Assembly: GCA_017457295.1 (NCBI GenBank)
Contig: JAFTHS010000040.1
Span: 25,786-89,785 of the forward strand
Source: Paludibacteraceae bacterium
Lineage (GTDB): Bacteria > Bacteroidota > Bacteroidia > Bacteroidales > Paludibacteraceae
Direction of reading: 5' to 3'
Length of the DNA: 64,000 nucleotides
Shown here: one piece after another, positions 50,276 to 64,000 of the stretch
Layout of the letters: each line of letters opens with the position of its first letter
Position numbering within the stretch: position 1 is the first letter of the stretch
The notes under the pieces: generated by a model
The model's database searches: none
Told to the model about the DNA's origin: nothing
The model's input: only the letters and a program-made list of their open reading frames with translations
Made by a program: the position numbers and the translations under genes

Positions 50276-50319
50276 GGAATTGTAATTTATTGTTATTTAG
50301 TATTTCACCATTCACTTCA

Positions 50320-51135: not shown

Positions 51136-51187
51136 AATAATCGATGATTTTTACTTTTTATAGTTTACAAATTAGTGTGTAAAATTA

Positions 51188-52090
51188 CTAATTAAGATCG
51201 TACCCATAGTGGCGAAGGCGCATTTGCGATGATCGCCAGTCTTTGTCCACCTTGACAAAGAGCTGCAGGAATACAGGTTTGCCAAAGAATGCCTCTATTT
51301 CGCGGCGTGCTTGTGTTCCTACTCGCTTCAGTGCTTTGCCGCCTTTACCGATGATAATACCCTTTTGACTATCACGCTCCACATAGATGACCGCACCAAT
51401 GCGGATGATGCCCTCTGGGTGTTGTTCGTCGGGCTCCTCGTCCAAAAATGACTCAACCTCCACCTCTACGCTATAAGGAATCTCCTTGTCGTAGTTGAGC
51501 AGAATCTTCTCGCGAATCATCTCATCCACAAAGAAACGCGATGACTTGTCGGTCAATTGGTCTTTGGGGAAGAATGGCGGACATTCAGGTAGTGCCTCAC
51601 GGATAGCGGCGAAGAGTTGGTCGGTGCCAAACTTCTGCTGTGCGGAGATAGGGAACACCGTTGCCTCAGGCAATACGCGATGCCAGTACTCCACTAGTTG
51701 CTCCAGTGTTTCTTGCGTAGTAAGGTCTATCTTATTGATAATCAAGAATACTTTTGCCTTGATGCGCTTCACTTTGTCAAGGAAGTCGGCATTCTTATCG
51801 GGGTTGTCTTGTACGTCTGTCACATAGAGTAGCACATCCGCATCCACCAATGCCGAGCGCGAGAACTCCAACATCTGCTCTTGCAGTTTGTAATTGGGTT
51901 GTAGCACACCTGGCGTGTCGCTATATACCATTTGAAAGTCATCGCCATTGACGATACCCATGATACGATGGCGAGTGGTTTGCGCCTTCGATGTGATAAT
52001 CGACAGGCGCTCACCCACCAATACGTTCATCAGTGTGGATTTACCCACATTGGGATTACCTACTATATTTACAAAACCTGATTTGTGCAT
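51188..52090 (-). CDS. era: GTPase Era
   Basis: G1 GNPNVGKST, G3 DTPG, NKID, C-terminal KH domain. Confidence 0.95.
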   Translation of the reverse strand: MHKSGFVNIVGNPNVGKSTLMNVLVGERLSIITSKAQTTRHRIMGIVNGDDFQMVYSDTPGVLQPNYKLQEQMLEFSRSALVDADVLLYVTDVQDNPDKNADFLDKVKRIKAKVFLIINKIDLTTQETLEQLVEYWHRVLPEATVFPISAQQKFGTDQLFAAIREALPECPPFFPKDQLTDKSSRFFVDEMIREKILLNYDKEIPYSVEVEVESFLDEEPDEQHPEGIIRIGAVIYVERDSQKGIIIGKGGKALKRVGTQARREIEAFFGKPVFLQLFVKVDKDWRSSQMRLRHYGYDLN

Positions 52091-52094
52091 TTAC

Positions 52095-54992
52095 TTAATA
52101 ACTGAATAAGCGTGATTTAGAGAGTTTGGTAATCTTGCCATACTTGGCTTTGATTTGCTTTTGGTCAATGAGTTTAGGGTCACCCATGATGAGAATAGTG
52201 ATAGGTTTGTCTTTTACTCGTTGCTCATAGAAAGATAGCACATTATCAAAAGTCAAGCGTTGAATATCACGCACTTGCAGCATGGCAGGGTCCACCTTGT
52301 AACCCAAGAGCATATTGGCTGTCAGGCGTTGACTCTTGCTGCGGAAAGTAGGCTTGTTGGACAATACCGATTGACGTAAGACGGTGCGGATATTCTCCAT
52401 TGTTTCAGGATACTGTGGCATAGAATCCAAGAGGCTCATATACACGTCTATTGCATCAGCTACCTTGTCGGATTGTGTACCCACATAGCCCGTGAACTTG
52501 GTCAGTTGTCCTTGTTTTGGAGCGCGTGAGAAATAGCCATATGCGGTGTATGCCATAGAGCGTTTTTCGCGTATCTCGTTCATCACAAGACCAGAGAAAC
52601 CGCCACCAAAGTACTCGTTGAATGCCATATAATTTACTGCTTCCTTCACGTTGTATGGTTCGCCATCAATGAGGAAATACACTTTGGCTTGTTGCATACT
52701 TGCATCAGGGAGGAAGTATATCTTATTCTCCGTGATAGGCACAACAGGACGCTCCACAGGTGATTTGGTTGGGCGCACATGCTGATTGAGTGAGAGTTTG
52801 GTATAGAGGATATTCTTCACATCCAATGCTGGCAACGCACCTGCGTAGTGAATCTCCAACTCGTAGTTTTGCACTTGGTGCAACACACCTTCGAGTTGCG
52901 ACGGAGTCATTTGCAGCACCTCTTCCATCAACGCAGGGCGTTTGATATATGGAGAGTTCTCGCCATAACGTACATAGTCGAAAGCCGCATCTGCCACAAT
53001 ATCGGTATTGCGTTCCTCTACTTTGCGCGAAGAATATACTTGACCCTTGATATTGTTGATTAGCATGTCGTTTTCGGATTCGAAGTTAGGGAACATCATG
53101 TGCAGATTGACCATCTCCACAATCTTCTCTAAGTTCTCTTCGTTACCTTCAATATCTACATAGAAATATCCGTCCGATACTGAGTAACTGCATTTGCCGC
53201 CCAACTTAGCGAGGTTAGCGCGGAACTCTGCTGGCTTGATGCCTGGTGTACCCTTGATACCCGACATATTCATCAATGCCGCAGCATACTCTAATAGTGG
53301 CAACTCGTATGTGCCCACACCATATTTCAAACGGAGTGAGAAGATATGGTTCTTGGTGTTTGGTGTGCAATATACGCTCACGCCCTCGTAGAAACGGTCT
53401 TGGTCAATGTCAGAGAAGTCAATGAAAGTAGGTGTAAGTTTGCCCGCAGGAATAGCATCTAAGTATTGGCAATACTCCGACTCGCCCTTTGGCGACTCCA
53501 GTGATTTGATTTTTGGTTTGGGCAGTTTGTCTTTTTTAGGTGTACCCTCCTCAATCTCAAACACTTTCTTTGGAGCACCCAAATACTGCTTTGCTACGCG
53601 CTTGAGGTCGTCCATTGTGATAGCAGCCACCAACTCTTTCTCGCGCAGGATCTCCTCTACCGATTGTTGATAAGTAAAAGCGTTGTAGAGCAGCGATACT
53701 TTCATCTGAGGATACTCCATTGTGCGGTCAAACTCTTGGTAGAAGTTCTGGCGCACCATCTCCACCAACTCGGGGTCAATGTCGCCATCCACCAGTTTCT
53801 GCACCTCTTTCATTACCAATTCCTCCGTTTCTTTGAGCGAAGTATAGGTTTGTGTTTGAGCATCCATGTATGGCACTGCCACCACGAGGAAGCGACCTTG
53901 GTCACGGCGCGTGTCGTTGGCTGCTACGGCATACATGAGTTTATTGTCCAATGTCAGTTGGTCAAGCAAACCAATCTGCATGGAGTTGGAGAGCAAATTA
54001 GCCACGAAATTCAATGTCAGTTCATCTTTATCGCCCACAGCCACACCGTTGTACGCGATATTTAGCTCTGGCATATAGCCCAGTTTAGCAGTATAGCGTT
54101 CATCTTGTGTGAAGGCAGTGGTAGGATACTTTGTGCGCTCAGGCAGAGGGCGCGATTGCAGTTTGCCAAAGGTCTTTTCAATCAATGGTTTGGTAGTCTC
54201 AATCTCAAAATCACCCACCAAGATAAGTGCCATATTGTTAGGCACATACCATGTATTGTAGAAGTCGATGAGTTTGCGCAGTTTAGGATTCTTCAGGTCC
54301 TCTGGATAACCGATGATGTCGCGTGCGTAGGCATGTCCCTCATAGAGTTTGCCGAAAATAAAGTTGCGCACGTGGGTGGAGTTGTCATCAAGGTACATAT
54401 TGTATTCCTCGAACACGTTTTCTAGTTCGGCTTGGAAGCTGCGGAACACAGGATTGGTCAAGCGGTCTGCGTAAAGAGTGAGCCAACGCTCCATCTGATA
54501 AGAAGGGAACGAGTTCATATAGCAGGTCACATCGTAACTGGTAAACGCGTTCAATCCCTCGCCACCAATACCCTGAATCAGGTTGGAGAATTCATCCGTA
54601 GCAGCATATTGCGCAGCTTCGCGCGACACTTCGTTGATGCGCAGTTGCACCGCCTCGCGCGCTTGGTCATCGGTGGTGAGTGCCAGTGTATCGTAGAGGG
54701 CAATGATTTGCTCGTAAAGCGGTTTCTCTTTTGCCCAATCAAGTGCGCCAATGCGGTCGGTACCTTTGAAGAGCATGTGCTCGAGGTAGTGTGCCAGACC
54801 AGTAGCATCAGCAGGCTCATCAATGGAACCCGCGCGGGTGACAGTCCAACCCTGCACATCGGGTTGGTCATGGTCTTCCCACAAGTAAACGGTCAAACCA
54901 TTGTCCAATTGGTACTGTACGAAATCATCATTCTGTGCCCATGCTGCGAATGTGAGGCAGACACAAATCAAACTGACAAAAACTCTTTTCAT
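52095..54992 (-). CDS. M16 family (insulinase/pitrilysin-like) zinc peptidase, double-length
   Basis: Signal peptide; inverted zinc motif HYLEHMLFKG (HxxEH); 965 aa. Confidence 0.85.
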   Translation of the reverse strand: MKRVFVSLICVCLTFAAWAQNDDFVQYQLDNGLTVYLWEDHDQPDVQGWTVTRAGSIDEPADATGLAHYLEHMLFKGTDRIGALDWAKEKPLYEQIIALYDTLALTTDDQAREAVQLRINEVSREAAQYAATDEFSNLIQGIGGEGLNAFTSYDVTCYMNSFPSYQMERWLTLYADRLTNPVFRSFQAELENVFEEYNMYLDDNSTHVRNFIFGKLYEGHAYARDIIGYPEDLKNPKLRKLIDFYNTWYVPNNMALILVGDFEIETTKPLIEKTFGKLQSRPLPERTKYPTTAFTQDERYTAKLGYMPELNIAYNGVAVGDKDELTLNFVANLLSNSMQIGLLDQLTLDNKLMYAVAANDTRRDQGRFLVVAVPYMDAQTQTYTSLKETEELVMKEVQKLVDGDIDPELVEMVRQNFYQEFDRTMEYPQMKVSLLYNAFTYQQSVEEILREKELVAAITMDDLKRVAKQYLGAPKKVFEIEEGTPKKDKLPKPKIKSLESPKGESEYCQYLDAIPAGKLTPTFIDFSDIDQDRFYEGVSVYCTPNTKNHIFSLRLKYGVGTYELPLLEYAAALMNMSGIKGTPGIKPAEFRANLAKLGGKCSYSVSDGYFYVDIEGNEENLEKIVEMVNLHMMFPNFESENDMLINNIKGQVYSSRKVEERNTDIVADAAFDYVRYGENSPYIKRPALMEEVLQMTPSQLEGVLHQVQNYELEIHYAGALPALDVKNILYTKLSLNQHVRPTKSPVERPVVPITENKIYFLPDASMQQAKVYFLIDGEPYNVKEAVNYMAFNEYFGGGFSGLVMNEIREKRSMAYTAYGYFSRAPKQGQLTKFTGYVGTQSDKVADAIDVYMSLLDSMPQYPETMENIRTVLRQSVLSNKPTFRSKSQRLTANMLLGYKVDPAMLQVRDIQRLTFDNVLSFYEQRVKDKPITILIMGDPKLIDQKQIKAKYGKITKLSKSRLFSY

Positions 54993-55109
54993 ATTTTCTC
55001 GCCTTTAAACTTTAATCTCTAAATTTTAAACTCTAAACAGTAGCACCGTACGGGGTCCCCGAAAAATCTGCTGATTTTTGGGGTGTTGTAGGGCGTCCAC
55101 TAAACACAA

Positions 55110-56135
55110 TTACCACTCGAGCAGTACTTTGCCACATTGGCCGCTGACCATGACGTCGAAGCCCTTTTGGAAGTCGTCGAAGTGGAAGCGGTGAGTAATC
55201 ACTGGACTCAAATCCAAACCACCCAACAACATCTGCTCCATCTGATACCATGTCTCCCACATGCGACGGCCAGTGATGCCCTTGATAGTCAAAGCATTGA
55301 AGATGATATCCGACCAATTGACTTGCGTGTTGCTTGGCAAGATACCCAACTGCGCGATATTAGCACCCTTATACATGTGCGCGATCATATCATTAAACGC
55401 TGCTGGTGCACCCGACATCTCCAAACCAATATCGAAGCCGCGTATACCCAATTGCTTCATTGCACCCTCTACGGTCTCGCCCTTCGAGCCATTGACCGTG
55501 ATAGTAGCACCCATCTTCTTGGCAATCTCGAGGCGTTGCTCGTTGAGGTCGGTCACGACAATATTCTTCGCTCCCGCATAGCGGCAGATACCTGCAGCCA
55601 TCGTACCAATCAAGCCCGCACCTGTGATAAGCACATCTTCGCCCAAGAGAGGGAAAGCCAATGCGGTATGCGTAGCATTGCCGAAGGGGTCCATGATAGC
55701 GGCGAAGTCGTCTGGAATCTCAGGGCGAATATGCACGATATTGCTCTCAGGGATAGTCACATACTCTGCGAATGCTCCGTCCTTGCCCATGATACCAACT
55801 GAGATAGTGTTCTCGCACACGTGCCCCATGCCACGACGGCAGTTGCGGCAAGTGCCGCAGACGATATGTCCCTCGGCAGTCACGCGGTCGCCTACTTTCA
55901 CACCACGAACACCTGGTCCGACCTCTACAGCCACGCCCACGAACTCGTGACCCATGATATAGGGCGGTGTGCAATGGCTTTGCGACCATTCGTCCCATTT
56001 ATACATGTGCAGATCCGTACCGCAAATAGCTGCTTTGGTAACCTTGATAAGCACATCATTCACGCCTACTTGAGGCATTGGCACCTCTTCCATCCAGAGC
56101 CCTGGCTCGGCATAACGTTTTACAAGCGCTTTCAT
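55110..56135 (-). CDS. tdh: L-threonine 3-dehydrogenase
   Basis: MKALVKRYAEPGLWMEEVPMP…AICGTDLHMYKWDEWS; Zn-ADH family, close to the E. coli Tdh N-terminus. Confidence 0.92.
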   Translation of the reverse strand: MKALVKRYAEPGLWMEEVPMPQVGVNDVLIKVTKAAICGTDLHMYKWDEWSQSHCTPPYIMGHEFVGVAVEVGPGVRGVKVGDRVTAEGHIVCGTCRNCRRGMGHVCENTISVGIMGKDGAFAEYVTIPESNIVHIRPEIPDDFAAIMDPFGNATHTALAFPLLGEDVLITGAGLIGTMAAGICRYAGAKNIVVTDLNEQRLEIAKKMGATITVNGSKGETVEGAMKQLGIRGFDIGLEMSGAPAAFNDMIAHMYKGANIAQLGILPSNTQVNWSDIIFNALTIKGITGRRMWETWYQMEQMLLGGLDLSPVITHRFHFDDFQKGFDVMVSGQCGKVLLEW

Positions 56136-56199
56136 ATTGTTGTATTGTTCAAAATTGTTCAGTATTGTTCAATGTGATTCACATTTTTCAATTTCGGCG

Positions 56200-56207
56200 C
56201 AAAGGTA
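56200..56207 (-). promoter_or_regulatory. Candidate -7 box (TACCTTTG) of the tdh promoter
   Basis: The reverse complement of caaaggta matches TAnnTTTG, about 65 nt upstream of the tdh ATG. Confidence 0.4.
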
Positions 56208-56398
56208 GTGAAAAATCACGAATTATGCAAGAGTTTGTTGCATTTTATAACAACACTTCCTAATAATATGTTGCAAAATCTTCGGGACAGAAGGGGGCTT
56301 GTGACAGAAATCGCTTGCGATTAATCATTCGAACCCATTGGGCGAAATAAGACGATTGTGCCGAAGGTTAGTGGAATTCAACGTGGAATATTATTGCT

Positions 56399-57598
56399 TT
56401 ACAAGGATAAGAATCGTTCTATCGGAGTTGAGAAAAATAATTCTGTTGGAAAAGCATCGCCACCAACCACAAGTGAGTACTCTGGATGAAATTTGTCAGC
56501 AAAAACATGAAGACCACTATTATCTTGTCGGTGACCACTTTTCACTTCTAATGCCATCAATCGATTTCCTGTTTGACGGATGATAAAATCCAATTCATCA
56601 TTGTGGTCTCTCCAATAATACAGGTCATAATCCTGCTCCTGCGCATGGTTGATGAGATGTGCACCTATAGCACTTTCCACCCAACGCCCCCAGCGACTTG
56701 GATCAAGTTGTTCGGTCTTAAATCCTCGACCTTGAAAATAACTCAATAGAGCGGTATTATAGACTTGATATTTTGGAATCGACTGATAGCGTCTTGCAAA
56801 GTCAGCTGCATACCGCTGCAATCCCCCTAATAGAGATGCTTCATCTAAAGTCTTGAGATAATTAGCTAAGGTGGATGTGTTTCCCGCCTCATTTAATTGA
56901 CCAATAATCTTATTGAATGCAATAATTTCGCCACTATACGCACATCCAATTTCGAATAGTTGTCTCATTAGAGCAGGTTTAAGTACGCGTTTGGTCATTA
57001 ACACATCGCGATTAATAGCTGGCTCAATAATAGAATCTCGCATATATTGACGCCAACGTTTCTCGTTATTGACATAGGGAGCAGCACCAGGGTATCCACC
57101 AAAATAGATGTACTGTTCAATTGAAAAGTTGAATGCTTCGTGCATTTCGGTGTAGGACCAATGTGGCACACGAATCAGCTCAAAGCGTCCCATCAAACTC
57201 TCCGTTAAGCCGTCTTTGAGTAGCAAACGACTACTGCCTAACAAAATCAGTTTGATATTGATATCATGAAAGGTGTCGTAGTCCCATTCTTTTTTGACAA
57301 TTTCGCTCCAATTGTCTATTTTTTGCACCTCGTCGATAATCAGTATATGCTCTTGTTGCCCCTCCAATTGCATACGAATACGAACGGATTGCCATTTCTC
57401 TGATATCCATGCACGATTATTTGTAGCTACTTCATCTGCATTTAGACTGGTAGCAGGTATAGTGCATTGTGCTAAAAATTGCTTGATGAGTGTAGTTTTT
57501 CCTACTTGACGTGGACCTGCAAGAACTTGAATACATTTTCTGGGTTCTTGCATACGTTCAATAATTGTACTTAATTGTGAGCGAACTATCATATACAA
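56399..57598 (-). CDS. AAA-family ATPase with DUF4143-like C-terminal domain
   Basis: Walker A LAGPRQVGKTT, Walker B ILIIDEVQ; 399 aa architecture typical of stand-alone AAA_14/DUF4143 proteins. Confidence 0.8.
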   Translation of the reverse strand: MYMIVRSQLSTIIERMQEPRKCIQVLAGPRQVGKTTLIKQFLAQCTIPATSLNADEVATNNRAWISEKWQSVRIRMQLEGQQEHILIIDEVQKIDNWSEIVKKEWDYDTFHDINIKLILLGSSRLLLKDGLTESLMGRFELIRVPHWSYTEMHEAFNFSIEQYIYFGGYPGAAPYVNNEKRWRQYMRDSIIEPAINRDVLMTKRVLKPALMRQLFEIGCAYSGEIIAFNKIIGQLNEAGNTSTLANYLKTLDEASLLGGLQRYAADFARRYQSIPKYQVYNTALLSYFQGRGFKTEQLDPSRWGRWVESAIGAHLINHAQEQDYDLYYWRDHNDELDFIIRQTGNRLMALEVKSGHRQDNSGLHVFADKFHPEYSLVVGGDAFPTELFFSTPIERFLSL

Positions 57599-57622
57599 CT
57601 GATTTATAGTTTTTTGTCGAAT

Positions 57623-57681
57623 CCAAAATTCTCAAACACTCTCTCCCAAATTCTCAAAGTATCATTCCCAAATTCTCAAAC
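57623..57681. repeat. Three direct repeats CCCAAATTCTCAAA(C/G) at 22-bp spacing
   Basis: Units at 57623-57637, 57645-57659 and 57667-57681, just upstream of the AAA ATPase start. Confidence 0.9.
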
Positions 57682-57726
57682 TCGGTGCAAAATTACTATA
57701 TTTTTGTGAACTATGCAAGTTTTTAG

Positions 57727-58158
57727 GTGTATTTTTTTGAAAAAAGTTTTTGGGTGCTGAATGTTGTGCTGAAAGTTACCTGCAAGTTTCGGGACCACTA
57801 TAGGAGATCTGTGGGATATCTGTAGGCTTTCTGTGGCTGTATTAGGTCGCTCTTTTAATCACTCTCAAGTTGACTGCGGGCTACGCGATCACTTCGCGAC
57901 CACTGTAGCACATCTGCTGCCTAGTTGTATCACAGCGGTGGCTTTGTGTTTTCACCTTTTCGTTTTCCATATGCCTCTATATATTATAGGGGTGCTGAAT
58001 ACTCAGCGTTTTAGTGGTTTGGTGCTGAATATTTGAGATTTTTGGGAATAAAATGGTATATACAACACGCGGGAAGTGTAGTGTTTACTAAGATTCCCGC
58101 GTGAGTGTATTTTTTTGAAAGAAGTTTGTGAGTGCTGAATGTTGTACTGAGAGTTATC
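57727..58158. repeat. Copy B of the dispersed composite repeat, bounded by 54-bp direct repeats
   Basis: 57727-57780 and 58105-58158 are 48/54 identical. Internal modules match 23074-23314 in inverted orientation. GTGCTGAAT occurs four times. Confidence 0.85.
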
Positions 58159-58172
58159 AATCATCAGCAAGG

Positions 58173-58970
58173 TTATTCCTTCACTTTCGTATGCGCTACA
58201 ATGTGAATACTCAATTCGTAAAGCAGGTATAGCGGTACTGTCACCAACAACAAAGTGAATATATCCGCAGTCGGTGTAATGACGGCTGACAAGATGGCTA
58301 ACACTACTATTGCATGTTTGCGGTATTGTACCAATAGCGGTTTGTCTATCAATCCCAATTTTGCCAAGAAATAGGCAATGATAGGTATCTCAAATAATAT
58401 GCCCATAAGCAATGATAACACCAATAGTGTTGATATATACGACTTTAGTGCAATCTGATTAACAACCATCTCTTGTACTTGATAGGTACTTAAGAATCGA
58501 AATGCGAAGGGGAATATCACAAAATAGTTGAGCAATACGCCCATGGCAAACAATATCACGCCAAAGAATATCAGCAGTATTGAATAGCGCTTTTCTTGTG
58601 TGTATAGCGCAGGAGCGATAAAGCCATAGAGTTGGATGATGAGATATGGGAACGCTACTAACACGCCCATAATGACTGCCACTTGCAAGTGCGTAGTGAA
58701 TTGCGATGCTAATTCGATATTGATAAACTCAATAGCGAAATCTCCTGGGCATAGTGCAGGCATAGACAATCGCTCTGCTAACCAACACAATCCGCGATAG
58801 AGAATAAAGTCGGATTTGGATGGAGCAAAGAGTATGCTGAAGAGTGCGTCCTTAAAGCAGAACGCAGCAATAGCGCATACTAACCACACTGCCAAGCAAC
58901 GGAAAACAACCTTTCGGAACACTTCTACATGTTCCCAAAAGGTCATTTTCTCCTCGTTATTATTTTTCAT
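58173..58970 (-). CDS. tatC: Twin-arginine translocase subunit TatC
   Basis: [12 protein letters not shown]…, six TM segments, FEIP and TPTAD motifs. The true start may be Met9 (58946). Confidence 0.92.
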
Positions 58971-59184
58971 CTTGGTTTGGTTGCTGTTCGGTAGACTGTT
59001 GCGATGGTTGATCTTTTAAGGGGCGTTTTACTTCCTCCTCCATCTCATTCATTCCCTGTTTGAACATCTTTACGCCTTTACCCATTCCTTTCATTAGCTC
59101 TGGAATTTTCTTGCCTCCAAATAGCAATAGCACAATGAGAACAATAAAAATAATCTCAGGTGCTCCTATCATCAATAGTGTCAT
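58960..59184 (-). CDS. tatA: Twin-arginine translocase subunit TatA/E
   Basis: 74 aa with a single TM, hinge [12 protein letters not shown], an amphipathic helix and an acidic tail. Confidence 0.9.
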
Positions 59185-59186
59185 GA

Positions 59187-59396
59187 TTAGATAATTTGAA
59201 TGTTAATACTATTCATGTTTTTCCATAAGAATACGAGTACCCATATTGCAATCAAACAAAGTATAGCTATAGTCGTACTAATTACAGCCACTTTATTCCA
59301 CACTCCGTGTTGTCTATTAAACCAACGGATAAGAAAGATGGCGAAGACAATAGTACTAACGCTAATAATTGCTAATAGAATGACCCCTATATTCAT
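59187..59396 (-). CDS. Small two-TM membrane protein, operon member, unknown function
   Basis: 69 aa with two ~20-residue hydrophobic helices. 4-nt overlap with the upstream gene; ends 2 nt before tatA. Confidence 0.55.
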
Positions 59397-59668
59397 TGTG
59401 GCATATTTAAATATATCTCACAAGTGTCAAAATTGATTTCCCAATGTCCACCTTCGCAAGATTCCCAGTTGTATTTAGTTGCCATGTCATCCCACCATTG
59501 TTGGAACTTGCTGCCTGTTTCGCCCATATCTTTTACGAGCTTTTCATACAACTCTGCGTTATCAGCAGTGAGAATCTTTGCCAATTCGGTCAAACCATTT
59601 CGACGCTCAAATAGCGTTTGAATGGTGTTTTTTTCTTCGACAGTTACCTGTCCTACAAGTTTTTTCAT
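59393..59668 (-). CDS. CXXX repeat peptide modification system accessory protein (91 aa)
   Basis: Size, position and operon context fit the NCBIfam-named accessory protein of this system. Assignment is from memory of the family, not from a search. Confidence 0.55.
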   Translation of the reverse strand: MKKLVGQVTVEEKNTIQTLFERRNGLTELAKILTADNAELYEKLVKDMGETGSKFQQWWDDMATKYNWESCEGGHWEINFDTCEIYLNMPQ

Positions 59669-59669
59669 A

Positions 59670-60623
59670 TTAAAATTCCTCCTTTACCTCAAATGGATCT
59701 AAATATGTGATTTCTTTTATCTCGTTATTGACTACATACCCTGCCTCTTTCAATTGTAATTGCAAATCGCGTGCAGCATTGCGCTCAAGGTGCGAGATGA
59801 TACATTGTTGGCGCGATGGGGTGTTGTTGTCCCATGTGAGTTTTTGATTGAGCCAAATACAACGATTGCAATGGTATGCATCACAAATGCGACAAAGTGG
59901 CGCATGGTCAAGTTGCAAGAGTTGTTTGTTTGGAATGTCAAGCCCTCTCTCTAAATCTCCTACACTACGCGAAGCATCTTTAGTCTTGTGATTCATGCGA
60001 TTGCTAATGCCCATCTGCTCATCATAATAGAATGCGGGGCAGAGGTAGAACTTTCCATTAGGTGCAAGCGTAATATTGCCAATACCTGCTTCACAATTGT
60101 GCATCTCGGTCAATTGCAAACGGTCTGTCAAGATGTTGAGTTGTGGGTTCTTTGCTTGCTTGTATAGATTGAGCAAAACGGCATTGAGCGTTGCCAATGC
60201 TTTTTTGTAATCTTCAATCTGTTCATCAGTAAATGATTCAATATTCGTCAAGCAGATATTGAGACGCGTGGTTTGTGGCAAGAGTGCTGCAATATCGTAT
60301 TGCTTTGCAATAAACTCGGCAATCGTCAAGCGCAATACAATATTGTCCGTTTCTGCTATTGTTGGCACAGAATCAAGTACTTGCACCTCACGTCCAATCT
60401 TCACATGGTCAATCGTCTCAATGAGTTCGTTGTATTCCGTAGGGAGTTCGTAGTCGGGATATACAAACTGAATCATCAAGTTTTGTTTCATACCAAAGAG
60501 GATTGCTTTGCGCAAGGTCTCCAATGGCATCAACTTTCGCTCTGTGAGCGGATTATTAGCATGGCAATAAGCCACGCTGGTGTCATCCAATAGGATAACC
60601 AAATATTGCAAATATGGTTTCAT
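59670..60623 (-). CDS. SPASM-domain maturase paralog lacking the radical SAM CX3CX2C motif (CXXX repeat peptide maturase-like)
   Basis: 317 aa with no CX3CX2C motif. C-terminal C-x16-GKFYLC…CRICDAYHCNRC…C is a SPASM-like seven-Cys signature. Confidence 0.65.
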   Translation of the reverse strand: MKPYLQYLVILLDDTSVAYCHANNPLTERKLMPLETLRKAILFGMKQNLMIQFVYPDYELPTEYNELIETIDHVKIGREVQVLDSVPTIAETDNIVLRLTIAEFIAKQYDIAALLPQTTRLNICLTNIESFTDEQIEDYKKALATLNAVLLNLYKQAKNPQLNILTDRLQLTEMHNCEAGIGNITLAPNGKFYLCPAFYYDEQMGISNRMNHKTKDASRSVGDLERGLDIPNKQLLQLDHAPLCRICDAYHCNRCIWLNQKLTWDNNTPSRQQCIISHLERNAARDLQLQLKEAGYVVNNEIKEITYLDPFEVKEEF

Positions 60624-60626
60624 TGC

Positions 60627-61850
60627 TTAGCAGATAATGTCGTTTGACGATTTCTTGTTTTGCTCAAATTCCTCGCGCTTGCCTTCTAATTCTAGTTTGC
60701 GGTAGAGCTTGTTCCAATAATAGTTGTTGGCACGCACACGCGCTTTGTGCATTTTGCAAATAGCGGTTGCACGTTCAAAGACGGTGTGCGTCTTGGCTGC
60801 ATCGTAGTTCTCGCCTTGGCACCAAGCACATCCCTCTGCTACTTCGCAATCTACGCACTCGGGCAAAGATTGGGTACAAAGATCAAGTGTAAGAAACGGA
60901 CGGAGTTTATTATTGTCAATTCCATCGTGAATGTTTCCGACAATCCATGCCTCTTTGTCACGAAGTGAGTATTGAGCGAAGCGAGTGCATGGGTAGAAAT
61001 TACCTGCTGCATCAACCGCTAACATCTTACCTGCACCGCACCAGTTTTGATTTTGTAATTGGCAATCTAAAGGTTTACCCATATTTTCGGAGAAGAAAGA
61101 ACATGCATAGTTTCTATATAATTCTTTATCTATGATTGTATCTGCCAATTGCATAAGTTGTTCCTCAAAGCGTAAGTCATCGCCTTCAGCCCATACATTC
61201 TCAAATACGCAGTTGATATTCACTTGATGAATGCCTAAGTCATAGAGGTGCAAAACAGATTCGCAGATATAGGGTATATCCGCAGATGAGATAGTCACTT
61301 TCGTGCCATCGCCAGGGAATTGGCTTTGCCATAGTGGTATATTCCTTACTACATCATCATACGAACCGCGTTCTGGACCATCACCCTTCCATATACGGTT
61401 AAGGTCGTGCTTGCGGCGAGTACCATCAATAGTAATACCAATACTTAGGTGTGATTTATTTTTCTCAATGAAGCGTTGTACTTTCTCGCTGGCATAGTTA
61501 ATACCATTGGTAGAGAATGAGAAACGATAGGAATTAAACCAATGGTGATTGCGACGGAAAAGTTCTTGTTTGATATAGTCGCAGATCTTGTCTATAAGGT
61601 CAATTTCTAGAAATGGTTCTCCTCCTATAAAGTCCCATACAACAGACTCGTACGCAAAGTTTGGATCATTTTCTCTATCCAATACATAATCAATAGCTGC
61701 CTTTGCTACTTCAAAAGGCATACGTTCCTTCTCGTTTTTGCCTACCAAATAGCAGTATTTGCAGGCAAGTTGGCAATCTTTGGTGACGATAAAGGTGATG
61801 TTTTTAGAAATTCCTGCTTGCCAAACACCATTGTATTTTTTTATTTGCAT
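60627..61850 (-). CDS. Radical SAM/SPASM peptide maturase (CXXX-repeat target family)
   Basis: C26-x3-C30-x2-C33 (DCQLACKYC). SPASM domain CGAGKMLAVDAAGNFYPC…CVDCEVAEGCAWC…C. 407 aa. Confidence 0.85.
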   Translation of the reverse strand: MQIKKYNGVWQAGISKNITFIVTKDCQLACKYCYLVGKNEKERMPFEVAKAAIDYVLDRENDPNFAYESVVWDFIGGEPFLEIDLIDKICDYIKQELFRRNHHWFNSYRFSFSTNGINYASEKVQRFIEKNKSHLSIGITIDGTRRKHDLNRIWKGDGPERGSYDDVVRNIPLWQSQFPGDGTKVTISSADIPYICESVLHLYDLGIHQVNINCVFENVWAEGDDLRFEEQLMQLADTIIDKELYRNYACSFFSENMGKPLDCQLQNQNWCGAGKMLAVDAAGNFYPCTRFAQYSLRDKEAWIVGNIHDGIDNNKLRPFLTLDLCTQSLPECVDCEVAEGCAWCQGENYDAAKTHTVFERATAICKMHKARVRANNYYWNKLYRKLELEGKREEFEQNKKSSNDIIC

Positions 61851-61927
61851 AGTATCTGAATAAATTCATTATGAACAATTACCATAGAAGATAAAATTGT
61901 ATCAACTATGGTAATCATTCCATTATT

Positions 61928-62158
61928 TTAACTGATAAGTGCCAATAAAGCTTTAATATCGGGTACACACCAATCTTCCAATGTATTACCCGCAAATATC
62001 AAAATAAAATTTCCATAAAAAGGTGAGTTCTCTATATTATATGGGAGATGATAGTAATGAATCACGCCATAATTTTTCAACTTATCATTTGATACACAAC
62101 GCCATTTTTGATTGGTAGCTAACCAATCAGCTTCTATTGGGGTTATTGCTCTCCTCAT
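61928..62158 (-). CDS. Hypothetical 76-aa protein between the precursor and the maturase
   Basis: ATG-initiated ORF 22 nt downstream of the precursor stop and co-directional with it. No motif recognised. Confidence 0.4.
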   Translation of the reverse strand: MRRAITPIEADWLATNQKWRCVSNDKLKNYGVIHYYHLPYNIENSPFYGNFILIFAGNTLEDWCVPDIKALLALIS

Positions 62159-62180
62159 AATTGCAATTATGGTTCATAAA

Positions 62181-62474
62181 CTAAAAATAAGCCTGTGAGC
62201 CACAACTTGTAGTACATTTGGTTTCACAACTGCCTGAGCATGAGTTTTGACAACCAAATTTACAACTACCTTGACACATACTGTGGCATGTGTTTTCGCA
62301 AGATCCCATACAAGAATTAGAACAACTAAGACCACAACCTGTTTCAGCTGCTTGCATTACATTAGGCATACTTGCCATTACTACTGCACCAACAACAGGC
62401 AATGCAGCTTTTGCGGCTTTTTTGAAAAACTCTCTACGCGATTGGAGTTCTTCGTTTTGTTTTTTGTTAGACAT
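62181..62474 (-). CDS. Tat-signal CXXX-repeat precursor peptide (radical SAM target)
   Basis: 97 aa with SRREFFK twin-arginine motif and a hydrophobic h-region. Twelve Cys fall at residues 47, 51, 55 … 91, exactly every fourth position. Confidence 0.85.
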   Translation of the reverse strand: MSNKKQNEELQSRREFFKKAAKAALPVVGAVVMASMPNVMQAAETGCGLSCSNSCMGSCENTCHSMCQGSCKFGCQNSCSGSCETKCTTSCGSQAYF

Positions 62475-62880
62475 AAAACTTAAGTTTTTGTTGTATAGGA
62501 ACTCCCAACTATACGGATTATTGGTTAAGTATAGGCATAAAATAAAAAGCGTGGAGTCCGACTATTGCCGTTCCATGCTCTGAGGCTGTCGCATTGCCTT
62601 ACTGATAAAACGACAACGCGAAGCCCACGCCGAATATAAATATTCTCCGTGCTACACAGTTAAGGTACGCGTGTGCGTATGTACATATACGCAAATGGCG
62701 TACCAAAATAGGCACAAGAGGGATAATCTATATCCCGTAGGACATCTACCGTTGCTATGTTCCTATCAGTTTGAAACTTGCGACATTTCAGAGCATCAGA
62801 ACAGAGCGCTAATAAACGCCTTTTAAATATGTCTGCTACCCCCGCCGATGACGTGCAGACATCCCCGGCGTGGAATTGCG
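62475..62880 (-). promoter_or_regulatory. Long (~400 nt) hairpin-rich 5' leader or independent sRNA upstream of the precursor gene; class unknown
   Basis: Lies between a consensus promoter (62885-62916) and the precursor ATG. Contains an 8-bp hairpin (62829-62862) with a possible pseudoknot, a nested 7+7-bp hairpin (62664-62704), and a T-run at about 62540-62550. Confidence 0.45.
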
Positions 62881-62884
62881 GGTG

Positions 62885-62916
62885 CAAATATACAACATTT
62901 TTTTGACATGACCAAA
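62885..62916 (-). promoter_or_regulatory. Bacteroidetes-type promoter (-33 TTTG, -7 TATATTTG) driving the leader and precursor operon
   Basis: On the minus strand, TTTG (62913-62916) and TATATTTG (62885-62892) with a 20-nt spacer. Confidence 0.55.
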
Positions 62917-62972
62917 TAAAAATGCCATTTATGCGAATTTAGCATAAATGGCAGAGGTGTTTTGGCTTATAA
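62913..62972 (-). terminator. Rho-independent terminator of the kinase-like gene; copy 2 of the element at 19008-19067
   Basis: 12-bp perfect stem tgccatttatgc / gcataaatggca (62923-62953) followed on the minus strand by TTTTTATTT. Confidence 0.75.
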
Positions 62973-63058
62973 CGCTATATTAAACATGTCGGGCAACGGT
63001 ATGCGTTGCGGATTAGTTATGAACTATAAGTGATGAATAATTTAGGGGAGTTAGTATT

Positions 63059-63865
63059 TTATTTTCTAATAAATTTTACGATGCAATCAATACAAATAGG
63101 AGTGTCGGAAACAGCATCAATAAACACATTTGCAGGGTGCATATCTTCTAAGTGTAAGCGTTCTCCAATATAATTTACGCCTCGTCCATCTCCGTTATCA
63201 CGAAAGCCCTTTTGAGCAACCATGAGATCTATCTCTTGCTTGGTAGCTAATCGTTTGCAAGTAACATAGGGTTGCGTACAAATAATACGGAACATTCCTT
63301 CGGAATCGCGCGTAAAGCCAATCACATTCATAGGAGTTTCTGCAAAGAGTGCATTGTGCAATACGATAGATTCTAATGCTCTGCCAAGTGTGGCATAGAT
63401 GGATGTACGAAGCTTGATGACAGAGGTGTCGCCATTTTGGTAATAAACTTTGGCTTCTGCTCCTTGGGCAATCATCGGACCATATTCCACTTCGATATCC
63501 TTTTCGGCATTATCGAACCATATACCTCTGACTTCTGCCCATTGACGAACCAGTTTCTCTTGAAGTTCGTCTATCTCCCAATTTCCTGGGCTAATTTGGC
63601 TTGCTGAAGCATTTGCACTTGCTTCAAGGCTTGTTCGCGCGTAGCAGCTGACGATGTACGCCCCAATGAGCATCTCACCTGCGCAGCAGAGACCTGCATG
63701 CTCCGCTTGATTGAATTGAGTAAGGTTTGTTTTTCCATTGAGTATGTCGTTTGTGAAATTATCAATCAGTTGTGTTGTTTGCTCTGAAAATCCGTTATAA
63801 CGAATAGCAGCATAGATTGATTCTATGCTTATTGGCGATGTGCTATTCAATAGTTCTTCTGACAT
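63059..63865 (-). CDS. Minimal protein-kinase-like fold protein (Bud32/RIO/Kdo-kinase-like) with unknown N-terminal domain
   Basis: AQGAEAKVYY (Gly-loop-like), SVIKLR (candidate Lys), LEDMHPANVF (catalytic-loop-like), ICIDCIV (DFG-equivalent). Confidence 0.5.
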   Translation of the reverse strand: MSEELLNSTSPISIESIYAAIRYNGFSEQTTQLIDNFTNDILNGKTNLTQFNQAEHAGLCCAGEMLIGAYIVSCYARTSLEASANASASQISPGNWEIDELQEKLVRQWAEVRGIWFDNAEKDIEVEYGPMIAQGAEAKVYYQNGDTSVIKLRTSIYATLGRALESIVLHNALFAETPMNVIGFTRDSEGMFRIICTQPYVTCKRLATKQEIDLMVAQKGFRDNGDGRGVNYIGERLHLEDMHPANVFIDAVSDTPICIDCIVKFIRK

Positions 63866-63895
63866 GATTTTCTATGCAATTTATAATTCTGCCTG

Positions 63896-63903
63896 CAAAG
63901 ATA
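63896..63903 (-). promoter_or_regulatory. Candidate -7 box (TATCTTTG) for the kinase-like gene
   Basis: The reverse complement of caaagata matches TAnnTTTG, about 30 nt upstream of the ATG at 63865. Confidence 0.4.
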
Positions 63904-64000
63904 CACTTTTTTTTTGAGATGTACAAGGCATGAATGATTTTTGAGCAATTTTTTTTAGGATCTTTCTTGCATATGTCAAAATTAAACAGTACTTTCGAAC

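What the first reader, a model, noticed from the sequence alone, without database searches (positions are those of the whole stretch)
62181..62474. Precursor with a perfect 12-cysteine ladder at i, i+4 behind a consensus Tat signal
The sequence is MSNKKQNEELQSRREFFKKAAKAALPVVGAVVMASMPNVMQAAETG-C-GLS-C-SNS-C-MGS-C-ENT-C-HSM-C-QGS-C-KFG-C-QNS-C-SGS-C-ETK-C-TTS-C-GSQAYF. SRREFFK fits the S/T-R-R-x-F-L-K consensus. The signal peptidase site is ambiguous (VMA|S or MQA|A). Cys occupy residues 47, 51 … 91 (DNA 62202-62336) with no exception. The residue before Cys is Ser in 7 of 11 repeats, and otherwise Thr, Gly, Met or Lys. In a helix, i+4 spacing would put all the thiols on one face as a cysteine stripe. 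That arrangement could suit serial thioether or disulfide cross-links or a linear metal or polysulfide chain. The spacer residues (S, T, N, Q, E, K, H, M) include possible acceptors for sacti- or ranthipeptide-type links. No C/S-x-P/A-x-R formylglycine motif is present.
Basis: partly seen in the sequence, partly recalled or inferred. Interest (0 to 1): 0.8.

Follow-up and report, generated by a model that had tools for sequence, protein, structure and literature searches.

The report
Known CXXX-repeat radical-SAM peptide, Tat-exported
This small gene encodes the cysteine-ladder substrate peptide of an already catalogued, chemically uncharacterised "CXXX-repeat" radical-SAM modification system that gut Bacteroidales encode next to their own TatA/TatC export genes.

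Summary
A 97-aa ORF (62181-62474, minus strand) has SRREFFK and 12 Cys at residues 47-91, spaced by exactly four (DNA 62202-62336). This is far beyond chance and is not a DNA repeat.

It is not new. The operon matches NCBIfam's curated CXXX-repeat peptide modification system:
- precursor: TIGR04114 repeat
- rSAM/SPASM maturase: TIGR04115, 621 bits
- SPASM-only partner: TIGR04119
- small accessory protein: TIGR04116
- then TatA and TatC

Public sources already name homologs "Cys-Xaa-Xaa-Xaa repeat radical SAM target protein". This gene order recurs across the 80 related Bacteroidales loci fetched. Homologs keep the RR motif (125 of 126 short representatives) and the spacing (84-88% of Cys-Cys gaps equal 4).

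The leader is conserved well beyond what Tat targeting needs.

Best model: cytoplasmic radical-SAM modification, most likely thioether stapling, followed by Tat export. I found no report of the product chemistry.

Side finding: phage-like contigs encode 1,600-1,800-aa proteins with up to 142 consecutive CXXX units next to a TIGR04115-type rSAM, with no Tat signal.

The parts
62181..62474 (-). Precursor gene (97 aa + stop): the CXXX-repeat radical-SAM target peptide
   Evidence: Translation. TIGR04114 repeat 21.7 bits (cutoff 20); TIGR04117 41.4 bits (below its cutoff of 50). 429 homologs, several named 'Cys-Xaa-Xaa-Xaa repeat radical SAM target protein'.
62349..62474 (-). Leader, residues 1-42: twin-arginine signal peptide (SRREFFK at 62421-62441), inferred also to serve as the maturase recognition leader. 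Probable signal peptidase I site MQA|A.
   Evidence: RR is 100% conserved, the two following Phe about 100% and the Lys 96%. Conservation extends from -6 to +24 around RR (NEELQSRREFFKKAAKAALPVVGA), well beyond the Tat consensus. The cleavage site is inferred, not predicted with TatP/SignalP.
62202..62336 (-). Core: 12 Cys at exact i+4 spacing (residues 47-91), followed by a 6-residue tail GSQAYF (62184-62201)
   Evidence: The tail after the last Cys is 5-7 residues in most family members and often ends in Y/F/W.
61928..62158 (-). 76-aa ORF between precursor and maturase; not a core component
   Evidence: No family hit. Homolog found in only 2 of 80 related loci. Called as a gene in the near-identical contig L081.
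60627..61850 (-). Radical SAM/SPASM peptide maturase (407 aa), CXXX-repeat target family
   Evidence: TIGR04115 621 bits (cutoff 350). CxxxCxxC at C26/C30/C33. Aligns to CteB (5WGG), E = 3.8e-25, from CteB residue 94 onward, so it has no N-terminal RRE domain. C271/C288/C344 align with the CteB AC1 ligands and C332/C335/C341/C365 with AC2 (with PMC10177961).
59670..60623 (-). 'CXXX repeat peptide maturase' (317 aa): a SPASM-type Cys motif without a radical-SAM cluster motif
   Evidence: TIGR04119 208 bits (cutoff 150). No CxxxCxxC. C177-x12-G-x4-C195, C244xxC247x4C252xxC255 and C274 are all invariant. Only the SPASM stretch aligns with the rSAM. The AF2 model is poor (pLDDT 52.7).
59393..59668 (-). 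'CXXX repeat peptide modification system protein' (91 aa), accessory protein of unknown role
   Evidence: TIGR04116 99.8 bits (cutoff 50). 6,567 homolog clusters. Confident AF2 model, pLDDT 89.6, beta-alpha4-beta-beta. No significant PDB fold match; best E = 1.3.
59187..59396 (-). 69-aa ORF with two hydrophobic segments; overlaps the TIGR04116 gene by 4 bp; not a core component
   Evidence: Hydropathy and gene gaps. Homolog in 7 of 80 loci. No family hit.
58960..59184 (-). TatA (74 aa)
   Evidence: TIGR01411 66 bits (cutoff 53.9); PF02416. Present downstream of the cassette in 65 of 80 loci; most absences appear to be at contig ends.
58173..58970 (-). TatC (265 aa); overlaps tatA by 11 bp
   Evidence: TIGR00945 153 bits (cutoff 132.7); PF00902 196 bits. 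Present in 64 of 80 loci. Gene gaps.

Best explanation
The ORF is the substrate peptide of the CXXX-repeat peptide modification system (NCBIfam TIGR04114/04115/04116/04119). SHOWN: it heads a tightly packed minus-strand operon of precursor, (76-aa ORF), rSAM/SPASM maturase, SPASM-only partner, 91-aa accessory protein, (69-aa ORF), TatA and TatC. This order is conserved across Bacteroidales, and the RR motif and i+4 Cys spacing are family-wide. INFERRED MECHANISM: in the cytoplasm, the 42-residue N-terminus acts both as a Tat signal and as a RiPP-style leader. The rSAM has no RRE domain of its own, so it must recognise the peptide in some other way, possibly with help from the two accessory proteins. 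It then modifies the ladder one CXXX unit at a time. It keeps the CteB/PapB-type auxiliary-cluster ligands, including the three-Cys AC1 whose open iron site binds the substrate thiolate in PapB and Tte1186. The most likely chemistry is therefore S-C thioether stapling. No spacer side chain is conserved and Gly is common at every spacer position. If every unit is modified in the same way, the carbon acceptor must be a backbone C-alpha (sactionine-type) or the neighbouring Cys at i+4, which is the only invariant partner and sits at the same distance as the Asp in PapB's CX3D. The modified peptide is then exported post-translationally by the co-encoded TatA/TatC, and the leader is removed near MQA|A. 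This releases a peptide of about 55 residues into the periplasm. Its biological role is unknown. Wide conservation in gut Bacteroidales and reuse of the ladder in phage-like fibre-sized proteins point to a structural or physical role rather than a classic strain-specific bacteriocin.
For: - **Family assignment:** TIGR04115 621 bits against a cutoff of 350, TIGR04119 208 against 150, TIGR04116 99.8 against 50, TIGR04114 21.7 against 20, and TatA/TatC above their cutoffs.
- **Synteny in 80 loci:** TIGR04119 in 79, precursor in 76, TIGR04116 in 71, TatA in 65, TatC in 64.
- **Operon packing:** gaps of 3, 1, -4, 2 and -11 bp.
- **Family-wide RR motif and spacing:**
- **Leader:** conserved from -6 to +24 around RR.
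- **Closest characterised relatives:** the named, characterised enzymes among the best-scoring families are thioether formers, namely PapB 184.8 bits, the SCIFF maturase 112.7 and QhpD 96.6. The only PDB hit is CteB.
- **Cluster ligands:** all seven CteB auxiliary-cluster Cys align and are invariant in the family. PapB and Tte1186 bind the substrate Cys at an auxiliary cluster, probably AC1, and PapB makes six Cys-to-Asp C-beta thioethers in CX3D motifs (PMC10177961).
- **Independent co-occurrence:** two phage-like loci pair 1,610-aa and 1,824-aa ladder proteins with TIGR04115-type rSAMs (345 bits; the L083 enzyme is 35% identical to the window enzyme). L083 has no detectable Tat, TIGR04116 or TIGR04119 homologs; L084 was not checked for them.
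- **Spacer composition:** Gly at 6%, 41% and 25% of x1, x2 and x3.
Against: - No experimental data exist here or in the literature I could search. Expression, modification, export and cleavage are all inferred.
- The thioether assignment rests only on homology ranking and conserved cluster ligands. SPASM enzymes also catalyse C-C cross-links, epimerisation and Cys oxidation.
- The PapB model score (184.8) is well below its cutoff of 340, so this is not a PapB-family enzyme.
- The roles of TIGR04119 and TIGR04116 are unknown. TIGR04116 has no detectable RRE-like or Tat-chaperone-like fold.
- The Tat signal was judged by motif only, not by TatP or SignalP.
- Whether Tat in these genomes serves other substrates could not be assessed.
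Confidence: 0.8

Rival explanations
1. The maturase installs a modification other than thioether cross-links on the ladder, for example Cys oxidation or desulfurisation, epimerisation, C-C cross-links between spacers, or S- or C-methylation. Precursor identity and Tat export stay as in the main model.
For: The enzyme is only distantly related to any characterised maturase: PapB 184.8 bits against a cutoff of 340, and anSME 49.9 bits. The SPASM superfamily covers many chemistries, and cyclophane formers also appear in the hit list. The presence of a second, SPASM-only protein (TIGR04119) is not typical of the simple thioether systems compared here.
Against: The only invariant core residue is Cys. 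The named, characterised enzymes among the best-scoring families are Cys-thioether enzymes. The three-Cys AC1 site, which ligates the substrate thiolate in PapB and Tte1186, is conserved (PMC10177961). No C/S-x-P/A-x-R formylglycine motif is present (sequence). Aromatic residues needed for cyclophanes are not conserved.
Confidence: 0.2
2. The ladder is a metal- or iron-sulfur-binding Tat substrate, like a ferredoxin or a periplasmic metallothionein. The SPASM proteins act in cofactor insertion, and Tat is used because the peptide is exported with a bound cofactor.
For: Tat classically exports cofactor-loaded proteins (established knowledge). The core has 12 thiols and no other conserved feature. 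The partner TIGR04119 has Fe-S-type Cys motifs but no SAM-cleaving cluster.
Against: Repeat number varies from 4 to 70 or more Cys, and to 142-168 in the giant proteins, with no fixed cluster-sized module. CxxxC spacing is not a known [4Fe-4S] motif (own knowledge). An intact rSAM active site (CxxxCxxC plus SPASM) is strictly conserved at 77-94% identity across families, which implies catalysis on the peptide. The phage-like giant versions have no Tat signal.
Confidence: 0.08
3. The product is a secreted antimicrobial (a sactipeptide- or ranthipeptide-like bacteriocin) used in competition between strains. The hypervariable core reflects diversifying selection.
For: A conserved leader with a hypervariable core is the classic RiPP bacteriocin pattern. 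There are 1-5 paralogous precursors per locus. Sactipeptides such as thuricin CD also use CxxxCxxxC donors (own knowledge).
Against: Relatives of the maturase occur in at least 592 species-representative genomes, with a very strongly conserved enzyme, and the 80 closest loci keep the same synteny. This is unlike patchy bacteriocin clusters. No immunity gene, ABC exporter or leader protease is conserved in the cassette. There was no match to the 91-aa accessory protein in 72,556 plasmids. The core is polar and Gly/Ser-rich rather than amphipathic.
Confidence: 0.12
4. The ORF is a chance or non-functional reading frame.
For: None, beyond its short length and the lack of any Pfam-A hit in the local copy.
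Against: P = 3.9e-11 for the ladder. 429 homologs with a conserved leader. 1,177 representative clusters. Conserved position upstream of the maturase.
Confidence: 0.01

Closest known systems
CXXX-repeat peptide modification system (NCBIfam/TIGRFAMs TIGR04114 repeat, TIGR04117 target paralogs, TIGR04115 rSAM, TIGR04119 maturase, TIGR04116 accessory). From memory, it was defined in Haft & Basu 2011, J Bacteriol, which I could not retrieve.
   Same: All components are present above their curated cutoffs and in the conserved order. The precursor has tandem CXXX units behind a twin-arginine leader. Public sources already use these names for close homologs.
   Different: Nothing essential differs. 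The precursor scores below the cutoff of the TIGR04117 paralog model (41.4 against 50) and is caught only by the repeat model TIGR04114. Two small non-conserved ORFs (76 aa and 69 aa) are interleaved in this locus.
PapB/PapA (freyrasin), ranthipeptide
   Same: An rSAM/SPASM enzyme acts on a peptide with a repeated Cys-X3 unit. PapB makes six Cys-S to Asp-C-beta thioethers in CX3D motifs (PMC10177961). It is the second-best family hit for the window enzyme, and the auxiliary-cluster Cys pattern is the same.
   Different: The score of 184.8 is below PapB's cutoff of 340. There is no Asp at i+4; that residue is always Cys. This system has a Tat leader and Tat genes in place of a conventional leader and exporter, has no RRE domain in the enzyme, and has two extra accessory proteins.
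CteB/CteA (SCIFF) and Tte1186
   Same: CteB is the closest solved structure (5WGG, E = 3.8e-25). The RS, AC1 and AC2 cysteines all align. These enzymes form thioethers from a Cys donor (PMC10177961).
   Different: CteB carries an N-terminal RRE of about 90 residues that is absent here. SCIFF peptides have six Cys in a conserved, non-periodic core and no signal peptide.
QhpD/QhpC (quinohemoprotein amine dehydrogenase gamma subunit)
   Same: An rSAM/SPASM enzyme cross-links a Cys-rich polypeptide in the cytoplasm before it reaches the periplasm (own knowledge). TIGR03906 hits at 96.6 bits.
   Different: QhpC is an enzyme subunit with four cross-links and, from memory, its own dedicated exporter. 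It has no CXXX periodicity and is not known to use a Tat leader.
Cys-every-fifth system CefA/CefB (NF038107) and CcpM Cys-rich peptide maturase (TIGR04068)
   Same: These are other catalogued rSAM/SPASM systems whose targets are defined by periodic or dense Cys. Both appear in the hit list.
   Different: The scores are weak (52 and 126 bits, far below their cutoffs). The Cys period differs, and no Tat linkage is evident from their names; this was not examined here.

Membership tests
CXXX-repeat peptide modification system | Target peptide with tandem Cys-Xaa-Xaa-Xaa repeats (TIGR04114 repeat model) | tested here: met
   21.7 bits against a cutoff of 20. 12 consecutive units.
CXXX-repeat peptide modification system | Adjacent rSAM/SPASM maturase of family TIGR04115 | tested here: met
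   621.2 bits against a cutoff of 350, over the full model length. The enzyme lies 330 bp downstream in the same operon.
CXXX-repeat peptide modification system | TIGR04119 'CXXX repeat peptide maturase' partner | tested here: met
   208.4 bits against a cutoff of 150.
CXXX-repeat peptide modification system | TIGR04116 accessory protein | tested here: met
   99.8 bits against a cutoff of 50.
CXXX-repeat peptide modification system | Membership of the full-length target-protein model TIGR04117 (paralog family) | tested here: not met
   41.4 bits against a cutoff of 50. The model name (Syntroph_Cxxx, kind 'paralog') suggests a narrower lineage, so this does not affect system membership.
Twin-arginine (Tat) substrates | S/T-R-R-x-F-L-K motif, then a hydrophobic h-region, then a small-x-small cleavage site | tested here: met
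   SRREFFK at residues 12-18, an h-region of about residues 20-34 (mean hydropathy up to 1.7), and MQA|A. This is motif-level only; TatP and SignalP were not available.
Twin-arginine (Tat) substrates | Export actually depends on TatABC | not testable with these tools
   Only genomic linkage to TatA/TatC is available, in 64-65 of 80 loci.
Ranthipeptides (PapB type) | Enzyme reaches the PapB family cutoff | tested here: not met
   184.8 bits against a cutoff of 340.
Ranthipeptides (PapB type) | Conserved side-chain acceptor (Asp/Glu/Thr etc.) at a fixed distance from each donor Cys | tested here: not met
   x1, x2 and x3 are hypervariable, with Gly at 6%, 41% and 25%. The residue at i+4 is Cys.
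Sactipeptides | Cys S to backbone C-alpha thioethers installed by an rSAM/SPASM enzyme | not testable with these tools
   This is compatible with the position-independent spacers but needs MS/NMR. Sactipeptide maturase models score far below their cutoffs (RumMC 69.2 against 720).
RiPPs with RRE-dependent leader recognition | PqqD-like RRE domain fused to the maturase or encoded as a discrete protein | tested here: not met
   The rSAM aligns to CteB only from residue 94, so it has no N-terminal domain. The TIGR04116 model (pLDDT 89.6) has no PDB fold match; best E = 1.3. TIGR04119 could not be modelled.

The most novel reading that the evidence does not exclude
The maturase staples every CXXX unit in the same way. 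Cys sulfur bonds either to a backbone C-alpha or to the next Cys at i+4 (the PapB CX3D geometry with Cys in place of Asp). This turns the ladder into a continuous thioether-zipped rod, which would be a new cross-link topology and in effect a new class of modified peptide or protein. Bacteroidales export the short version through a Tat translocase encoded in the same operon, which would be an unusual export route for a RiPP. Phage-like elements use the same enzyme-ladder pair, without Tat, to build shafts of about 570 residues in proteins of 1,600-1,800 aa.
Probability: 0.3. Interest if true: 0.75.

Novelty: already known. Interest (0 to 1): 0.35.

Why it matters
The system is catalogued, but as far as I could find its chemistry and function are untested. 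It appears to be widespread in gut and rumen Bacteroidales: at least 592 species-representative genomes carry relatives of the maturase, and its accessory proteins form thousands of 90%-identity clusters. Its maturase is unusually conserved, and it is physically linked to the Tat genes.

Solving the product structure would show what a radical SAM enzyme does with a substrate whose only constant feature is Cys at every fourth residue. It would also test whether Tat can serve as a RiPP exporter, and might explain why these anaerobes keep a Tat system.

The window instance adds no new kind of system. The analysis here does narrow the chemistry, by excluding fixed side-chain acceptors. It also shows that the ladder-enzyme pair exists outside the Tat context, in phage-like giant proteins.

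Tried and rejected
**Literature.**
- Eight full-text searches found no paper on this system. Terms included 'CXXX repeat', 'CXXX-repeat', TIGR04115, 'Cys-Xaa-Xaa-Xaa', ranthipeptide + twin-arginine, RiPP + 'Tat signal', SPASM + Bacteroidetes, and 'peptide maturase'.
- Haft & Basu 2011, Hudson et al. 2019 and Grell et al. 2015 are not held.
- The Bacteroidales RiPP-mining paper PMC10352776 does not mention the system.

**Sequence and RNA checks.**
- DNA tandem repeat as the origin of the ladder: rejected.
- Structured RNA in the 580-bp upstream region: only a sub-threshold chance miRNA hit.
- Sigma-70 promoter scan: no enrichment (12 found against 15.4 expected), and Bacteroidales promoters are not covered by the scan.

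**Accessory proteins.**
- TIGR04116 as a PqqD-like RRE or Tat chaperone: confident model but no PDB fold match and no PDB sequence match.
- TIGR04119 structure: pLDDT 52.7, unusable, so no fold search was run. The hhalign comparison against the rSAM aligns only the SPASM stretch (E = 0.026, probability 1.9%).

**Mobile or phage origin of the cassette.**
- No plasmid match to the 91-aa accessory protein.
- The single 'phage' hit, MT837480.1, is an unverified 6.8-kb scaffold carrying the whole cassette including TatAC, probably bacterial.

**Other.**
- Lipoprotein reading for this peptide: rejected, because Glu sits at -3 of the first Cys. Some long paralogs do have lipobox-like sites.
- Context of the giant ladder proteins via viral and metagenome pattern scans and the phage BLAST: nothing found. 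The exact-sequence contig look-up then worked.
Full report

MSNKKQNEELQSRREFFKKAAKAALPVVGAVVMASMPNVMQAAETGCGLSCSNSCMGSCENTCHSMCQGSCKFGCQNSCSGSCETKCTTSCGSQAYF

- The 12 Cys sit at residues 47, 51 ... 91 (DNA 62202-62336), and there are no others.
- With 12 Cys in the 52-residue core, a perfect ladder has probability 3.9e-11. None of 200,000 shuffles gave a ladder longer than 8.
- Tandem Repeats Finder sees no period-12 DNA repeat, so the pattern is maintained at the protein level.
- It is the only ladder ORF in the window and, by a crude motif filter, the only ORF with a Tat-like N-terminus.

**2. What it is.** The neighbours on the same strand form a tightly packed operon, with gaps of 3, 1, -4, 2 and -11 bp after the maturase.

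| Gene (window coordinates) | Assignment | Score vs cutoff |
|---|---|---|
| 60627-61850 | TIGR04115, radical SAM peptide maturase, CXXX-repeat target family | 621 vs 350 |
| 59670-60623 | TIGR04119, CXXX repeat peptide maturase | 208 vs 150 |
| 59393-59668 | TIGR04116, CXXX repeat peptide modification system protein | 99.8 vs 50 |
| 58960-59184 | TatA (TIGR01411) | 66 vs 53.9 |
| 58173-58970 | TatC (TIGR00945) | 153 vs 132.7 |

- The precursor passes the TIGR04114 repeat model (21.7 against 20). It falls below the cutoff of the paralog model TIGR04117 (41.4 against 50).
- Public sources already name close homologs "Cys-Xaa-Xaa-Xaa repeat radical SAM target protein", "CXXX repeat peptide maturase" and "CXXX repeat peptide modification system protein". 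A newer Pfam entry, PF27846 (tSAM_targ_Cxxx_rpt), is precomputed on them.
- The finding is therefore a member of a catalogued system. From memory, that system was introduced in Haft & Basu 2011, which I could not retrieve.

**3.
The best 80 are nearly all labelled Bacteroidales MAGs from gut and rumen: Paludibacteraceae at up to 94% identity, and Muribaculaceae, Prevotellaceae and Rikenellaceae at 77-82%.
- In those 80 loci, the order precursor, rSAM, TIGR04119, TIGR04116, TatA, TatC recurs: 79, 76, 71, 65 and 64 loci for the respective partners. Most absences appear to fall at contig ends.
- The 76-aa and 69-aa ORFs of this window recur in only 2 and 7 loci and are not core. Larger gaps in some loci hold an IS transposase or unrelated secreted proteins.
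- The precursor has 429 homologs. Of the 120 listed, 103 carry [ST]RRxF[FLIVM]K, and the longest exact ladder ranges from 4 to 17 Cys.
- A profile search of 1.84 billion representatives finds 1,177 clusters (591 at E <= 1e-10). Of 126 short representatives, 125 have the RR motif, and 83.8% of Cys-Cys gaps equal 4.
- Loci carry 1-5 precursor paralogs.

**4. Anatomy of the peptide.**
- Anchored on RR, conservation runs from -6 to +24 (N-E-E-L-Q-S-R-R-E-F-F-K-K-A-A-K-A-A-L-P-V-V-G-A), with many positions above 80%. This is far more than Tat targeting needs. It fits a leader that is also read by the maturation proteins; that dual role is an inference.
- A Pro at +24 (P37) is 86% conserved, and a small-x-small motif precedes the first Cys in 214 of 233 sequences. 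This favours cleavage near MQA|A over VMA|S.
- In the core, 88.5% of Cys-Cys gaps are 4 and 5.7% are 3. Spacer composition is x1 = S22/K12/T10/Y8/Q8, x2 = G41/N11/S11, x3 = S29/G25/T20 (percent). Pro is almost absent.
- Two consequences follow. First, this composition is not helix-favouring, so the "cysteine stripe on a helix" idea has no support. Second, no spacer position has a conserved side chain and each tolerates Gly. A ranthipeptide-style side-chain acceptor at a fixed position therefore cannot be the general rule. If all units are modified alike, the acceptor must be a backbone C-alpha or the neighbouring Cys.

**5. The enzymes.**
- *The rSAM.* It has CxxxCxxC at C26/C30/C33 and a full SPASM Cys set. 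Its only PDB relative by sequence is CteB (5WGG, E = 3.8e-25). The alignment begins at CteB residue 94, so the N-terminal RRE of CteB is missing here.
- Using the CteB ligand list in PMC10177961 (chain numbering is offset by +3), C271/C288/C344 correspond to AC1, which has three Cys and an open iron site. C332/C335/C341/C365 correspond to AC2. All are invariant in 22 orthologs.
- PMC10177961 shows that the substrate Cys/SeCys of PapB and Tte1186 ligates an auxiliary cluster, probably AC1, before C-S bond formation. It also shows that PapB installs six Cys-to-Asp C-beta thioethers in CX3D motifs. The named, characterised enzymes among the best-scoring families after TIGR04115 are thioether formers: PapB 184.8, SCIFF maturase 112.7 and QhpD 96.6 bits. 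Thioether chemistry is the best inference from this, but it is not demonstrated.
- *The TIGR04119 protein.* It lacks CxxxCxxC but has invariant C177-x12-G-x4-C195, C244xxC247x4C252xxC255 and C274. This stretch is the only part that aligns with the rSAM profile. It looks like a SPASM-only, non-SAM-cleaving partner. Its AF2 model was unusable.
- *The TIGR04116 protein.* It gives a confident model (pLDDT 89.6, beta-alpha4-beta-beta) with no significant PDB fold neighbour (best E = 1.3). It cannot be called an RRE or a TorD-like chaperone.

**6. Mechanism proposed.** *Shown:* the gene content, the synteny and the conserved motifs. *Inferred:* the following sequence of events.
- The peptide is modified in the cytoplasm, because radical SAM chemistry needs SAM, reductant and Fe-S clusters.
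- It is then exported post-translationally through the co-encoded TatA/TatC.
- The leader is removed, releasing a peptide of about 55 residues.

QhpC/QhpD offers a comparable logic of cross-linking first and exporting afterwards (own knowledge). I rate precursor identity and system membership at about 0.95. I rate the thioether assignment at about 0.5. The biological role is open.

**7. Independent support from an unexpected place.**
- The representative search also returned proteins of 767-1,803 aa with no RR motif, whose C-terminal parts are enormous ladders. P0363 has 142 consecutive Cys at i+4, and P0508 has 155 gaps of exactly 4. Their tails (…CTGSAYKISA, …CTGFAYKPLTA) resemble the window's …CGSQAYF.
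- Two such genes could be placed on contigs: L083 (a 212-kb contig) and L084 (an 18-kb contig). In both, a radical SAM gene bearing a Hint/intein-type domain lies two genes upstream.
- These enzymes score 345.5 and 345.2 bits on TIGR04115, just under the cutoff, with PapB next at 144-155 bits. The L083 enzyme is 35% identical to the window maturase.
- Neighbours hit tail-fibre and other PHROGs and a homing endonuclease. No TIGR04119, TIGR04116, TatA or TatC homolog is detectable in L083; L084 was not checked for them.
- The minimal conserved pair is therefore the ladder plus a TIGR04115-type rSAM. This strengthens the enzyme-substrate inference. It also suggests that the modified ladder is a structural element, and that the Tat leader and the two accessory proteins are specific to the exported Bacteroidales version.
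- The window precursor also hits phrog_6085 (E = 1.6e-5).

**8. Rivals.**
- A different modification chemistry (0.2).
- A metal or Fe-S carrier (0.08). The wildly variable repeat number and the strictly conserved catalytic rSAM argue against it.
- A bacteriocin (0.12). The broad, syntenic distribution and the lack of conserved immunity, protease or ABC genes argue against it.
- A chance ORF (0.01).

**9. Novelty and score.**
However, the system is already catalogued and annotated, so the novelty class is "already known".
- I found no report of the product's chemistry in the searchable literature. A real open question therefore remains, which keeps interest moderate at 0.35.
- The most novel reading not excluded is a continuous thioether-zipped rod, exported by an operon-encoded Tat system and reused by phages. 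I give it a probability of 0.3 and an interest of 0.75 if true.

Noticed in passing
L083:10001-15475 (P0508) with rSAM at L083:4077-5876; L084:7274-12106 (P0363) with rSAM at L084:2787-4556: Giant proteins of 1,610-1,824 aa have 142-162 Cys at almost unbroken i+4 spacing and no Tat signal. Each lies two genes downstream of a TIGR04115-type radical SAM gene (345 bits) that carries a Hint/intein-type domain. The neighbourhoods look phage-like (tail-fibre PHROGs, homing endonuclease), and one contig is 212 kb.
   Followed up: partly
Representative proteins P0372, P0377, P0383, P0394, P0432, P0435, P0436, P0440, P0451, P0457, P0490, P0502; also L002:5215-5964, L009:4140-4889, L039:4361-5071: Long RR-bearing family members (about 210-589 aa, up to 70 Cys). 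Their first Cys follows a lipobox-like sequence and is followed by an acidic stretch (for example ...LTSC-SKGD, ...FMSC-SKDKDD). They may be Tat-targeted, possibly surface-exposed, lipoprotein versions of the ladder.
   Followed up: no
window 63059-63865 (-): The gene immediately upstream encodes a 268-aa protein with the Kinase-PolyVal domain (PF18762, E = 1.7e-30), a kinase type described from polyvalent proteins. A strong terminator-like hairpin (62923-62953) separates it from the CXXX operon.
   Followed up: no
window 56399-57598 (-): An AAA_14/DUF4143 ATPase lies just downstream of tatC. Weakly similar genes flank the cassette in a few other loci (L006, L012, L033, L040, L076).
   Followed up: no
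window about 56000-64000 versus 50000-56000: GC content drops from 0.45-0.52 to 0.35-0.43 across the region holding the ATPase, the CXXX/Tat operon and the kinase gene. This may indicate an island or simply a compositionally distinct segment.
   Followed up: no
window 61928-62158 (-) and 59187-59396 (-): Two small ORFs are interleaved in the operon: a 76-aa soluble one and a 69-aa one with two hydrophobic segments. Neither has a family hit, and they recur in only 2 and 7 of 80 related loci. The 76-aa ORF is called as a gene in the near-identical contig L081.
   Followed up: partly
80 related loci: The rSAM maturase is unusually conserved across Bacteroidales families (77-94% identity). In the same loci TatC ranges from 41% to 98% and the TIGR04119 partner from 43% to 95%. 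This suggests very strong constraint on the enzyme despite hypervariable substrates.
   Followed up: no
L082 (MT837480.1, 'UNVERIFIED: Bacteriophage sp.', human faeces): A 6.8-kb scaffold deposited as phage carries the complete cassette: two ladder ORFs, rSAM, TIGR04119, TIGR04116, TatA and TatC. It is probably a misassigned bacterial fragment.
   Followed up: yes
L022:5757-6005 and L033:5701-5913: Leaderless ladder ORFs with no RR motif (for example MPHYTSCNNNCSWTCTDTCKGKC...) lie immediately upstream of the maturase, alongside normal RR-bearing precursors. In all, 7 of 124 ladder ORFs lack an RR motif.
   Followed up: no
L011:8327-9490: An IS-type transposase gene is inserted between the TIGR04119 and TIGR04116 genes. 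L047 has 2.5 kb of unrelated secreted-protein genes at the same junction.
   Followed up: partly
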